64,000 nt of DNA from the NCBI GenBank assembly GCA_000004985.1, contig GG738877.1; one strand, written 5' to 3'. Both the position numbers and the translations under genes were made by a program. Under the pieces are notes generated by a model, which searched no databases, was not told the origin of the DNA, and saw only the letters and a list, made by a program, of their open reading frames with translations. The DNA comes from Naegleria gruberi (Eukaryota). Of this stretch, positions 6,352 to 7,956 are shown piece after piece; position 1 is the first letter of the stretch; the number at the start of each line of letters is the position of its first letter.

Positions 6352-7956
6352 ATGAAGACAAGAAATACCCAAAAACTTCTTCTCTCTGTTGTTGGTAACA
6401 ATGGAAAATGTTGTTATTCCACAACAAATAGTAATCTTTCATTGAATGCTCTTAGACAACATCTTTCGAACCAACAACAATCAATGGAAAAAGCTAAAGT
6501 CTCCTACAATGAAAAAGTTGTTAATAACGCTGTTAATTTATATGAAGATAGAAAAGGTGATGAAGCTAAACACAACTGGAGTCTTTCTAAAGGATTAATT
6601 TTCCCACAATATGATGCTTATCGTAACGCTGATAATGAAACTTTATTGAAAAAGTCTTTTGGACAAGTCGACAGTGAAAAACAATTCTTGAAAGTCAAGG
6701 AAATTGCCAGTACCGAGTATGATAAGTATGTTGCCCATGCCGACAAAACTACACCTCTTGTTACATATACTGCCAAGGATGAAAAGTTCCACAAGCGTTC
6801 ACAACGTGAAGTTGGCTGGTATTTGTCATATGCTCCAAACTCTTTCACTCAAGATGGTTGTTTTGGTTCTGCCAATCAAAACACTTGTCTTGTTAGAGTT
6901 GTTACTGATAATAGTGTTTCTGGCTTGTTTTTGAAGAATATGATCTTGCCAACTAGAAAATTGGATTCCTCTGTTTTCAAATATGATTCTCTCGTTCTTC
7001 ACACTCCAGGTTTCCAATTTGTTCCAACTCACGTTGTTCAAGAATTTGGTGGTCCACTTCCAAAAGATTTGGGTTTGACAAAGGAACAATTTGTTTTTGA
7101 AAATGATCAAACCAATTCATCAGTAGTCAGTGGTGTTTTTAATCAAAATGTATTGTTGGATAATCTGGCCTTCTTTGGTGCTAGAACCATTTTCACAAAG
7201 AGTGGAGGAGCTGCTATTGTTTTGCCATCTGATTCTTTCATCAATAGTGACAAGTCATCAACAACTTTAATTATTAATTCTAATAATATTACTCGTACAG
7301 CTTTGACTGCTAGTAATATTACATTATACGGAGCTCACTACAATGTTCTCTCTGAATTAGGATTGAGTAGAGGTGTTGGTGGTGTTTTGGTTGAAGTTGA
7401 CGTTAACTCTGAATTGGCCAAGTCTCTCAAGAAGGGTGATTTGGTTGAAGAATCTGCTGATGGAAAGACTGTCAAGATTTCCACCAAAGTTTCTTCTACT
7501 GTTTTACCAAATATTGCACACACTCCAAAGAATATTGTTTTTGTTGTTGAAGATGCCAACTTTATTGTTCCAGTCCTTGGTAAGGTGAAGAATGCTCAAC
7601 AATTCTTCCAATCTGGTTTGGTTTCTGTTGGTAAGGACGCTACTTTCAACAAGTCATTCACTACTTTCGGAGCTCAAAGAGCTTATGCTGATGCCAAACA
7701 AGTTGCTGAATCATTTGCTAAACTTAACAAGGCTGCTAATGTATACATTGTCAATGGATCGTATGATGCCACCAAGATTCAACAAGCTCTCTCTTTGATT
7801 TCATCCGGTGAAGCTGCCTCCCTCAAGGAAGATCTTTCAAACTCTCTCTTCTCCACTCTTTCTCACAAAAGTCTTGAAAATAAGGCTTGGAAGGATCAAT
7901 CCAAGTATGCTGCTGCTATTAAGCAACTCGAAGAAAACGTTTCCAAAAGTTTGTAA
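6352..7956 (+). CDS. PEPCK(ATP)-like protein, divergent and apparently lacking the catalytic P-loop
   Basis: ATG at 6352, 534 aa, single exon. Several blocks align from memory with ATP-dependent PEP carboxykinase: [21 protein letters not shown] vs [28 protein letters not shown] vs HFVKNMFIRP, and [10 protein letters not shown] vs AYLVNTGWNG. The kinase-1a motif GLSGTGKTT, the IGDDEH motif and the FLSGFTAK motif are not recognisable. Confidence 0.55.
   Translation: [534 protein letters not shown]

What the first reader, a model, noticed from the sequence alone, without database searches (positions are those of the whole stretch)
6352..7956. PEPCK(ATP)-like protein that appears to lack the catalytic P-loop and metal/substrate motifs
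Length (534 aa) and several conserved blocks line up with ATP-dependent PEP carboxykinase from memory: the DxFCGAN..R..VRxxT block, the FxKNM block, and the LVNTGWNG-like YIVNGSYDA block. The hallmark motifs GLSGTGKTT (kinase-1a), IGDDEH and FLSGFTAK are not detectable. This suggests a diverged PEPCK paralogue or pseudoenzyme. The N-terminal roughly 50 aa may be a targeting sequence.
Basis: partly seen in the sequence, partly recalled or inferred. Interest (0 to 1): 0.55.

Follow-up and report, generated by a model that had tools for sequence, protein, structure and literature searches.

The report
Dead PEPCK-like mitochondrial protein of Naegleria
This Naegleria gruberi gene encodes an abundant mitochondrial protein that keeps the full fold of the enzyme PEP carboxykinase but has lost its catalytic residues; it belongs with NDUEG2/NDUTB12, an inactive PEPCK-like subunit of respiratory complex I so far called specific to euglenozoans.

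Summary
Window 6352..7956 (+) is an intact 534-aa ORF, identical to N. gruberi XP_002675541.1. It is homologous to ATP-dependent PEPCK over its whole length: Pfam 45 bits, profile-profile E 1.4e-35, AlphaFold pLDDT 91.6, TM about 0.7 to PEPCK crystal structures. The P-loop, the Mn ligands and almost every substrate or ATP contact are replaced.

It is not an orphan oddity. Its best match among solved structures is NDUEG2, the inactive PEPCK-like accessory subunit of Euglena complex I (E 1e-15, against 0.04 for a real PEPCK). NDUEG2 corresponds to T. brucei NDUTB12 and Diplonema DIPPA_18104. The Naegleria protein shares a GAH motif in place of GDDEH and an N-terminal extension of about 70 aa.

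A published proteome places this exact protein in N. gruberi mitochondria, at the same abundance as the complex I core subunit NDUFV1.

The most likely role is a non-catalytic structural subunit on the complex I peripheral arm. That role is inferred, not shown. N. gruberi NDUFS4 lacks the C-terminal extension that clamps NDUEG2 in Euglena.

The family (114 representative clusters, none with a P-loop) also includes amoebozoans and a glaucophyte, which contradicts the published euglenozoan-specific origin.

Verdict: new member of a known kind, moderate interest.

The parts
6352..7956 (+). Complete intron-less coding sequence (534 aa plus stop) of the PEPCK-like pseudoenzyme, N. gruberi XP_002675541.1
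   Evidence: ORF listing. 100% identity to the NCBI and UniRef entry. Sequence identity with the proteome table entry.
6352..6432 (+). aa 1-27: probable mitochondrial presequence ([27 protein letters not shown]); the cleavage site is unknown
   Evidence: The acid-free, basic N-terminus runs to residue 45 with 5 K/R. pLDDT is below 50 for residues 1-27. The proteome table lists PsortII, MultiLoc and TargetP prediction scores of 57, 86 and 57, and the protein sits in the mitochondrial cluster.
6433..6564 (+). aa 28-71: N-terminal extension ahead of the PEPCK fold, with a long helix at aa 29-57. Catalytic PEPCKs have no counterpart. It is comparable to the extension of about 66 residues by which Euglena NDUEG2 winds among NDUFS1B, NDUFS4 and NDUEG12.
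   Evidence: The hhalign match to E. coli PckA starts at aa 72. The model shows the helix at 29-57. The Euglena extension is described in the supplement of PMC10884005.
6565..7251 (+). aa 72-300: N-terminal, substrate-binding domain of the PEPCK fold. It contains the conserved QDGCFGS...VRVVTDN and FLKNM blocks. The substrate and Mn residues are replaced (Y207 to N264, K213 to D270, H232 to P292).
7252..7953 (+). aa 301-534: C-terminal, nucleotide-binding domain of the PEPCK fold. It is full length. The P-loop is degenerate (NSNNITRT, aa 309-316), GAH (aa 327-329) replaces GDDEH, and remnants of the FLSGFTAK and LVNTGWNG motifs remain.
5912..6351 (.). 440-bp AT-rich intergenic region shared with the divergently transcribed SKIP/SNW gene (4268..5911, minus strand); presumed promoter region
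   Evidence: Promoter function is inferred, not tested.

Best explanation
The gene encodes a nuclear-encoded, mitochondrially imported pseudoenzyme. It keeps the complete two-domain fold of ATP-dependent PEP carboxykinase. It has lost the P-loop, the Mn2+ ligands and most substrate and ATP contacts, so it cannot interconvert oxaloacetate and PEP.

It is the heterolobosean orthologue of Euglena NDUEG2, T. brucei NDUTB12 and Diplonema DIPPA_18104. It most likely acts as they do: as a non-catalytic structural accessory subunit sitting on NDUFS1 at the tip of the matrix (peripheral) arm of respiratory complex I. It would be held there largely by its lineage-typical N-terminal extension.

Shown here: the homology, the loss of catalytic residues, the fold, the mitochondrial location and high abundance, and family membership by sequence.

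Inferred: physical attachment to complex I in Naegleria, and a purely structural role.
For: 1. Sequence affinity. A single-sequence phmmer search of the PDB puts NDUEG2 of Euglena complex I first (8j9h_E2 and 8iuf_E2, E 1.2e-15, aa 161-373). The best catalytic PEPCK scores E 0.043. BLASTP gives 1e-20 to Euglena NDUEG2 and 2e-23 to Diplonema DIPPA_18104. DIPPA_18104 is listed as the NDUTB12/NDUEG2 orthologue in PMC12699882.

2. Shared derived characters. The P-loop is lost, GAH stands where PEPCK has GDDEH (Naegleria, Willaertia, other heteroloboseans, Euglena, Diplonema, Cyanophora), and an N-terminal extension of about 70 aa precedes the fold.

3. Catalytic residues are replaced. The Euglena homologue showed no PEPCK activity in complex I preparations.

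4. The fold is confirmed. The AlphaFold model has pLDDT 91.6 and pTM 0.86. Foldseek gives E about 1e-25 to PEPCK(ATP) structures and to 8iuf_E2.

5. Location and abundance. XP_002675541.1 is in the experimental N. gruberi mitochondrial proteome, with 43 unique peptides and 78.7% coverage. Its log2 LFQ values in the three fractions are 28.36, 30.30 and 32.12. The similar-sized complex I core subunit NDUFV1 gives 28.49, 30.25 and 32.20, and gamma-carbonic anhydrase gives 28.21, 30.07 and 31.99.

6. Purifying selection. The protein is 57-73% identical across Naegleria species and Willaertia, with more than 200 invariant positions.

7. Tree. In a rough neighbour-joining tree the heterolobosean sequences sit next to the euglenozoan ones, as in the species tree.
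Against: No experiment links the Naegleria protein to complex I.

Matching abundance is only circumstantial. Cytochrome bc1 subunit 7, which is not a complex I protein, has the same LFQ values.

N. gruberi NDUFS4 is 156 aa and ends where mammalian NDUFS4 ends. It therefore lacks the C-terminal strand and extension that locks NDUEG2 onto Euglena complex I.

The Naegleria protein keeps a complete C-terminal domain, whereas NDUEG2 is truncated there. In 3D it resembles catalytic PEPCKs (TM 0.68-0.71) at least as well as it resembles NDUEG2 (TMq 0.55).

A new ligand-binding or regulatory role for the conserved cleft cannot be excluded.
Confidence: 0.6

Rival explanations
1. A free (not complex-I-bound) mitochondrial matrix pseudoenzyme. 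It would use the retained PEPCK cleft for a new purpose, for example binding a metabolite or partner protein as a sensor, regulator or scaffold. Attachment to complex I would then be a later, euglenozoan-only step.
For: The C-terminal domain is full length and the fold is PEPCK-like. N. gruberi NDUFS4 has no clamp extension. The authors of the Euglena structure place recruitment to complex I after euglenozoans branched off. The proteome authors filed the protein under metabolism, not OXPHOS.
Against: It shares the N-terminal extension that NDUEG2 uses for docking. Its abundance equals that of complex I core subunits, which would be unusually high for a regulator. No ligand-binding residues of PEPCK are retained.
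Confidence: 0.3
2. A still-active carboxykinase or other phosphotransferase with a rebuilt, non-canonical active site. R315 and T316 would stand in for the P-loop Lys and Thr, and H329 would serve as a metal ligand.
For: In Naegleria and Willaertia the loop keeps the canonical P-loop length, with R315 and T316 aligned to K254 and T255. H329 is conserved.
Against: All three P-loop glycines, K213, H232, D268/D269, Y207, K288 and R449 are lost. Most family members have a 3-residue deletion in this loop. Euglena complex I containing the homologue has no PEPCK activity with ADP or GDP.
Confidence: 0.05
3. A decaying pseudogene or a gene-model artefact.
For: None beyond the loss of motifs.
Against: The ORF is an uninterrupted 534 codons. 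It is conserved at 57-73% identity across genera. The protein was detected with 43 unique peptides and 78.7% coverage.
Confidence: 0.01

Closest known systems
NDUEG2 of Euglena gracilis complex I (PDB 8iuf and 8j9h, chain E2; He et al. 2024, PMC10884005), equivalent to T. brucei NDUTB12 and Diplonema papillatum DIPPA_18104
   Same: It is the best sequence match among solved structures. Both have a PEPCK(ATP)-derived fold and have lost the ATP-binding motifs. Both carry GAH in place of GDDEH. Both have an N-terminal extension of about 66-70 aa. Both are mitochondrial.
   Different: Identity is only about 29% over about 230 aa. Naegleria keeps the whole C-terminal domain and a P-loop-length loop, while NDUEG2 is truncated. 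The NDUFS4 clamp extension of Euglena is absent from N. gruberi NDUFS4. Complex I association is proven for Euglena and for trypanosomatids, not for Naegleria.
Catalytic ATP-dependent PEP carboxykinase (E. coli PckA, PDB 1AQ2; T. cruzi PEPCK, 1II2; Pfam PF01293)
   Same: Homologous over the whole length (E 1.4e-35). Same two-domain fold, TM 0.66-0.71. Retained structural blocks: DGxFGS..VRVxT, FxKNM and YxVN.
   Different: Every checked catalytic, metal-binding or nucleotide-binding position is substituted or deleted. It scores 25 bits against the 590-bit cut-off of the pckA equivalog model. It has an added N-terminal extension and presequence.
Other enzyme-derived accessory subunits of complex I: gamma-carbonic anhydrases, NDUFA9 (SDR fold), NDUFA10 (nucleoside-kinase fold), and the TER-like NDUEG3 and NDUEG5. 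The first three are from general knowledge of complex I; NDUEG3 and NDUEG5.
   Same: The same evolutionary pattern: a metabolic enzyme fold recruited as a largely or wholly non-catalytic structural subunit of complex I.
   Different: Unrelated folds, and different positions on the complex.

Membership tests
Catalytic PEPCK (ATP), EC 4.1.1.49 / PF01293 / TIGR00224 | Significant match to the family profile | tested here: inconclusive
   Pfam PF01293 gives 45 bits against a cut-off of 26.5, so it passes, but only over aa 124-226. The NCBIfam equivalog TIGR00224 gives 25 bits against a cut-off of 590, so it fails. The result indicates homology but not equivalence.
Catalytic PEPCK (ATP), EC 4.1.1.49 / PF01293 / TIGR00224 | Two-domain PEPCK fold | tested here: met
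   AlphaFold model with pLDDT 91.6. Foldseek TM 0.66-0.71 and E about 1e-24 to 1e-25 against PEPCK(ATP) crystal structures.
Catalytic PEPCK (ATP), EC 4.1.1.49 / PF01293 / TIGR00224 | Kinase-1a P-loop GLSGTGKT(T), with Lys254 and Thr255 | tested here: not met
   The aligned segment is NSNNITRT(A). All glycines are lost and the Lys is an Arg. None of 114 family representatives has G.SG.GK[ST].
Catalytic PEPCK (ATP), EC 4.1.1.49 / PF01293 / TIGR00224 | Mn2+ ligands Lys213, His232 and Asp269 (IGDDEH) | tested here: not met
   K213 to D270, H232 to P292, and D268/D269 to A328/H329.
Catalytic PEPCK (ATP), EC 4.1.1.49 / PF01293 / TIGR00224 | Substrate and ATP contacts Arg65, Tyr207, Lys288, Arg333, Arg449 | tested here: not met
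   R65 to S120 (alignment weak here), Y207 to N264, K288 in a gap, R333 to K375, R449 in a gap.
NDUEG2 / NDUTB12 PEPCK-like accessory subunit of complex I | Closer in sequence to NDUEG2 and its orthologues than to catalytic PEPCKs | tested here: met
   PDB phmmer: NDUEG2 1.2e-15 against the best PEPCK at 0.043. BLASTP 1e-20 to NDUEG2 and 2e-23 to DIPPA_18104. It groups with these sequences in the NJ tree.
NDUEG2 / NDUTB12 PEPCK-like accessory subunit of complex I | Loss of the ATP-binding sites, and the shared GAH motif replacing GDDEH | tested here: met
.
NDUEG2 / NDUTB12 PEPCK-like accessory subunit of complex I | N-terminal extension (about 66 aa in Euglena) that is absent from soluble PEPCK | tested here: met
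   The match to PckA begins at aa 72. Residues 1-27 are disordered and a helix spans 29-57. The Euglena feature is described.
NDUEG2 / NDUTB12 PEPCK-like accessory subunit of complex I | Mitochondrial location | tested here: met
   Published LOPIT-type proteome: the protein is in the 946-protein mitochondrial cluster, with 43 unique peptides. This is literature evidence for this exact sequence.
NDUEG2 / NDUTB12 PEPCK-like accessory subunit of complex I | Incomplete C-terminal domain, as in Euglena NDUEG2 | tested here: not met
   The Naegleria protein aligns to E. coli PckA up to residue 515 of 540 and models a complete C-terminal domain.
NDUEG2 / NDUTB12 PEPCK-like accessory subunit of complex I | Partner adaptation: an extended NDUFS4 C-terminus whose beta-strand joins the NDUEG2 sheet | tested here: not met
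   N. gruberi NDUFS4 (XP_002676448.1, 156 aa) aligns through its residue 151 to residue 168 of the 175-aa mammalian NDUFS4, so it has no extension. The Euglena feature is described.
NDUEG2 / NDUTB12 PEPCK-like accessory subunit of complex I | Physical presence in purified or assembled complex I | not testable with these tools
   The only circumstantial evidence is LFQ abundance equal to NDUFV1 and gamma-CA. Complexome or cryo-EM data are needed.

The most novel reading that the evidence does not exclude
The PEPCK-like pseudoenzyme is not a euglenozoan invention. On this reading it is an ancient accessory subunit of complex I (or at least an ancient mitochondrial pseudoenzyme), possibly dating to early eukaryotes. 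It would be retained in Discoba (Heterolobosea and Euglenozoa), Amoebozoa (dictyostelids, Ceratiomyxa, Arcella) and a glaucophyte (Cyanophora), and lost in animals, fungi and land plants. Naegleria would carry a little-reduced form with the whole PEPCK fold. P0091-like proteins, which have a mitochondrial presequence, a lost P-loop and a retained GDDEH, would mark an intermediate stage of decay.
Probability: 0.3. Interest if true: 0.6.

Novelty: new member of a known kind. Interest (0 to 1): 0.4.

Why it matters
The protein now has a concrete, testable assignment. In databases it is a 'predicted protein' or a mis-named 'phosphoenolpyruvate carboxykinase'. It should not be counted as a gluconeogenic or anaplerotic enzyme in Naegleria metabolic reconstructions, including those for the pathogen N. 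fowleri, which has a 66%-identical orthologue.

It also bears on how complex I gained its lineage-specific subunits. The structure paper states that the PEPCK-like subunit was added after euglenozoans diverged, and later tables list it as euglenozoan-specific. The family found here reaches Heterolobosea, Amoebozoa and a glaucophyte. So either the recruitment is much older, or the pseudoenzyme existed long before it was bolted onto complex I.

Naegleria can be cultured, and a mitochondrial proteome already exists for it. That makes it a practical system in which to decide between these two histories.

Tried and rejected
- The first AlphaFold run used a 6-sequence alignment and failed (pLDDT 36). 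It was replaced by a run with 60 sequences.
- Two further word-indexed homologue searches with alignments added only one protein, P0119. That protein turned out to be an ordinary catalytic PEPCK.
- The afdb50 fold library was unavailable, so taxon names for more homologues could not be obtained. Only 30 cluster look-ups were possible, and many hits are unnamed metagenome or Logan proteins.
- I looked for prior mention of a PEPCK-like complex I subunit outside Euglenozoa. The searches covered 'PEPCK-like' with complex I, NDUTB12, Naegleria with accessory subunits, the supplements of the eukaryotic complex review, and the Acanthamoeba complexome paper. Nothing was found.
- I looked for evidence of a canonical PEPCK in Naegleria in the literature. 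The result was inconclusive.
[quoted passage not shown] It is closest to ordinary human MECR (4e-85), with NDUEG3 second (3.5e-66), so this is uninformative.
- The PDB hit of the 60-sequence profile to NDUEG2 (E 6e-77) is not used as independent evidence, because Euglena NDUEG2 (P0051) is in that alignment.
- The pseudogene and artefact readings were rejected on the proteomic and conservation evidence.

Full report
**What is there.** Window 6352..7956 (+) is a single uninterrupted ORF of 534 codons plus a stop. The window is about 34% G+C. The product is 100% identical to the NCBI 'predicted protein [Naegleria gruberi]'. Its sequence appears verbatim as XP_002675541.1 in a published proteome table. 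The window is therefore nuclear DNA of the heterolobosean amoeboflagellate N. gruberi. Upstream, on the other strand, lies a SKIP/SNW splicing-factor gene (4268..5911), separated by a 440-bp AT-rich spacer.

- Pfam PEPCK_ATP is hit above its gathering threshold (45 bits against 26.5, E 8e-12), but only over aa 124-226.
- The curated pckA equivalog model gives 25 bits against a cut-off of 590.
- I made a profile of 60 family members and a small alignment of bacterial PckA sequences. hhalign of the two aligns aa 72-534 to E. coli PckA residues 1-515, with probability 99.9% and E 1.4e-35.
- I confirmed the numbering of the E. coli functional residues in the fetched sequence. Their roles come from established structural work on PckA.
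- Mapping them gives: GLSGTGKTT to [9 protein letters not shown]; K213 to D270; H232 to P292; D268/D269 to A328/H329; Y207 to N264; R333 to K375; R65 to S120 (alignment weaker there). K288 and R449 fall in gaps.

**Fold.** A first AlphaFold run with six sequences was useless (pLDDT 36). With the 60-sequence alignment the model is confident (pLDDT 91.6, pTM 0.86). Residues 1-27 are disordered, a long helix spans 29-57, and the rest is a complete two-domain alpha/beta protein. Foldseek against the PDB returns PEPCK(ATP) structures with TM 0.66-0.71 and E about 1e-24 to 1e-25. Chain E2 of the Euglena respiratory supercomplex is at rank 4 (E 6e-25, TMq 0.55).

**What it is related to.**
- The decisive result is the plain single-sequence search of PDB sequences. 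The top hits are not PEPCKs but NDUEG2 of Euglena gracilis complex I (E 1.2e-15 over aa 161-373). The best true PEPCK reaches only E 0.043.
- He et al. 2024 (PMC10884005) describe NDUEG2 as a PEPCK-like subunit of the 'FAS domain' at the tip of the complex I peripheral arm. It sits on NDUFS1B and lacks two ATP-binding sites. No PEPCK activity was detectable. A roughly 66-residue N-terminal extension and the extended C-terminus of NDUFS4 hold it in place.
- PMC12699882 equates NDUEG2 with T. brucei NDUTB12 and Diplonema DIPPA_18104 and lists it among euglenozoan-specific subunits.
- NDUTB12 was found in NADH dehydrogenase complexes of trypanosomatids.
- BLASTP of the Naegleria protein gives 1e-20 to NDUEG2 and 2e-23 to DIPPA_18104.
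- The lineages share GAH where PEPCK has GDDEH. They also share an N-terminal extension of similar length.

**The wider family.**
- An HMM built from the five heterolobosean sequences was searched against 1.84 billion representative proteins. It found 114 clusters at E below 1e-3 and 53 at E below 1e-10. None has a P-loop.
- 51 of 70 full-length members start with an acid-free, basic N-terminus typical of mitochondrial presequences.
- Named members are listed:
  - Heterolobosea: sp. BB2, Pharyngomonas, Percolomonas.
  - Euglenozoa: Euglena NDUEG2, and Diplonema papillatum and D. ambulator.
  - Amoebozoa: Tieghemostelium, Dictyostelium purpureum, Ceratiomyxa, Arcella.
  - Glaucophyta: Cyanophora paradoxa.
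- In pairwise BLAST each non-discoban member scores best against the Naegleria protein (1e-16 to 1e-23). Most score better against NDUEG2 than against catalytic PEPCKs.
- Cyanophora's best PDB match is NDUEG2 (1.3e-15). For Tieghemostelium a short C-terminal stretch matches catalytic PEPCK better, so the dictyostelid link to NDUEG2 proper is weaker.
- A rough neighbour-joining tree without support values places the whole family apart from catalytic PEPCKs and puts Heterolobosea beside Euglenozoa.
- One unnamed protein, P0091, branches at the base of the family. It has a presequence, has lost the P-loop, and still has GDDEH, GGCYA and ETRVSYP.
- This distribution contradicts the statement in the Euglena paper that the PEPCK-like subunit was added after euglenozoans branched off.

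**Location and abundance.** Horvathova et al. 2021 (PMC8134430) defined 946 mitochondrial proteins of N. gruberi by gradient profiling. XP_002675541.1 is among them, with 43 unique peptides and 78.7% coverage. It was annotated only as 'phosphoenolpyruvate carboxykinase mitochondria', with a BLAST E-value of 2e-07.

Median log2 LFQ values in the three fractions:

| Protein | Fraction 1 | Fraction 2 | Fraction 3 |
|---|---|---|---|
| XP_002675541.1 (this protein) | 28.36 | 30.30 | 32.12 |
| NDUFV1, 53 kDa, complex I core | 28.49 | 30.25 | 32.20 |
| Gamma-carbonic anhydrase | 28.21 | 30.07 | 31.99 |
| NDUFA9-like protein | 28.15 | 30.24 | 31.98 |
| Cytochrome bc1 subunit 7 | 28.66 | 30.47 | 32.15 |

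The values are almost the same as for NDUFV1. This fits a stoichiometric complex I subunit. It does not prove it, because other respiratory-chain proteins, such as bc1 subunit 7, have similar values.

**Points against simple equivalence with NDUEG2.**
- The Naegleria protein keeps the whole C-terminal domain, whereas NDUEG2 is truncated.
- N. gruberi NDUFS4 is only 156 aa and ends where mammalian NDUFS4 ends. The NDUFS4 strand that clamps NDUEG2 in Euglena cannot exist in that form.
- If the protein is on Naegleria complex I, it must be held differently, most plausibly by its own N-terminal extension.

**Conclusion.**
- Established: a mitochondrial, abundant, conserved, catalytically dead PEPCK-fold protein that belongs by sequence to the NDUEG2/NDUTB12 family.
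- Inferred, at about 60%: it is a structural accessory subunit on the complex I peripheral arm.
- Main rival, at about 30%: a free matrix pseudoenzyme with another role, with complex I attachment arising only in Euglenozoa.
- Residual catalysis is unlikely, and the pseudogene reading is excluded.
- Classification: a new member of a known kind. The broader taxonomic reach of the family is the only part that goes beyond what is published.

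Noticed in passing
P0091 (516 aa, unnamed Logan assembly; found): A PEPCK-like protein with a clear mitochondrial-type N-terminus (MLRRLFLRRAS...). It has lost the P-loop (GRDKATWASS) but keeps VGDDEH, GGCYA, ETRVSYP and INTGFAGG. It branches at the base of the pseudoenzyme family in the rough tree, so it may be an intermediate stage of decay.
   Followed up: partly
N. gruberi XP_002674454.1 (not in the window; proteome table of PMC8134430): [quoted passage not shown] That is unusually high for a mtFAS enzyme. TER-like proteins are complex I subunits in Euglena and a diatom. 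Its best PDB match is human MECR, with NDUEG3 second.
   Followed up: partly
N. gruberi XP_002672831.1 and XP_002679790.1 (not in the window): [quoted passage not shown] In Euglenozoa a second NDUFA9 homologue (NDUTB5/NDUEG4) is counted as a lineage-specific complex I subunit. Naegleria may share that one too.
   Followed up: no
N. gruberi NDUFS4, XP_002676448.1 (not in the window): It is of conventional length (156 aa) and has no C-terminal extension, unlike the long NDUFS4 that clamps the FAS domain in Euglena.
   Followed up: yes
window 309-316 of the protein (DNA about 7276..7299): In Naegleria and Willaertia (and in P0006) the degenerate P-loop keeps the canonical length, with Arg and Thr or Ser at the Lys254 and Thr255 positions. 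Almost all other family members have a 3-residue deletion there.
   Followed up: partly
window 4268..5911 (-): A SKIP/SNW-domain splicing-factor homologue (Pfam E 4e-55), transcribed divergently from the PEPCK-like gene.
   Followed up: partly
window 33710..37000 (+): A 1096-aa ORF that combines a long NHL/teneurin-type beta-propeller repeat region with a C-terminal protein kinase domain.
   Followed up: no
window 2881..4266 (+), 27264..29135 (+), 30405..32837 (-), 21046..22245 (-): Four long ORFs (399-810 aa) with no Pfam match at E up to 1e-5. The region 2001-4000 also has a strong negative GC skew of -0.33.
   Followed up: no
window 8095..8394 (+): A small 99-aa ORF just downstream of the gene. 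It has a hydrophobic N-terminal segment (LLAVVVGAAIVVSAAGG) and a Thr/Ser/Pro-rich tail. Function unknown.
   Followed up: no
window 42019..44409 (+), 23520..26198 (-), 15996..17573 (+), 12492..14324 (-): Ordinary eukaryotic genes: exportin-T, a ubiquitin C-terminal hydrolase, a Kelch-repeat protein and an ankyrin-repeat protein.
   Followed up: no
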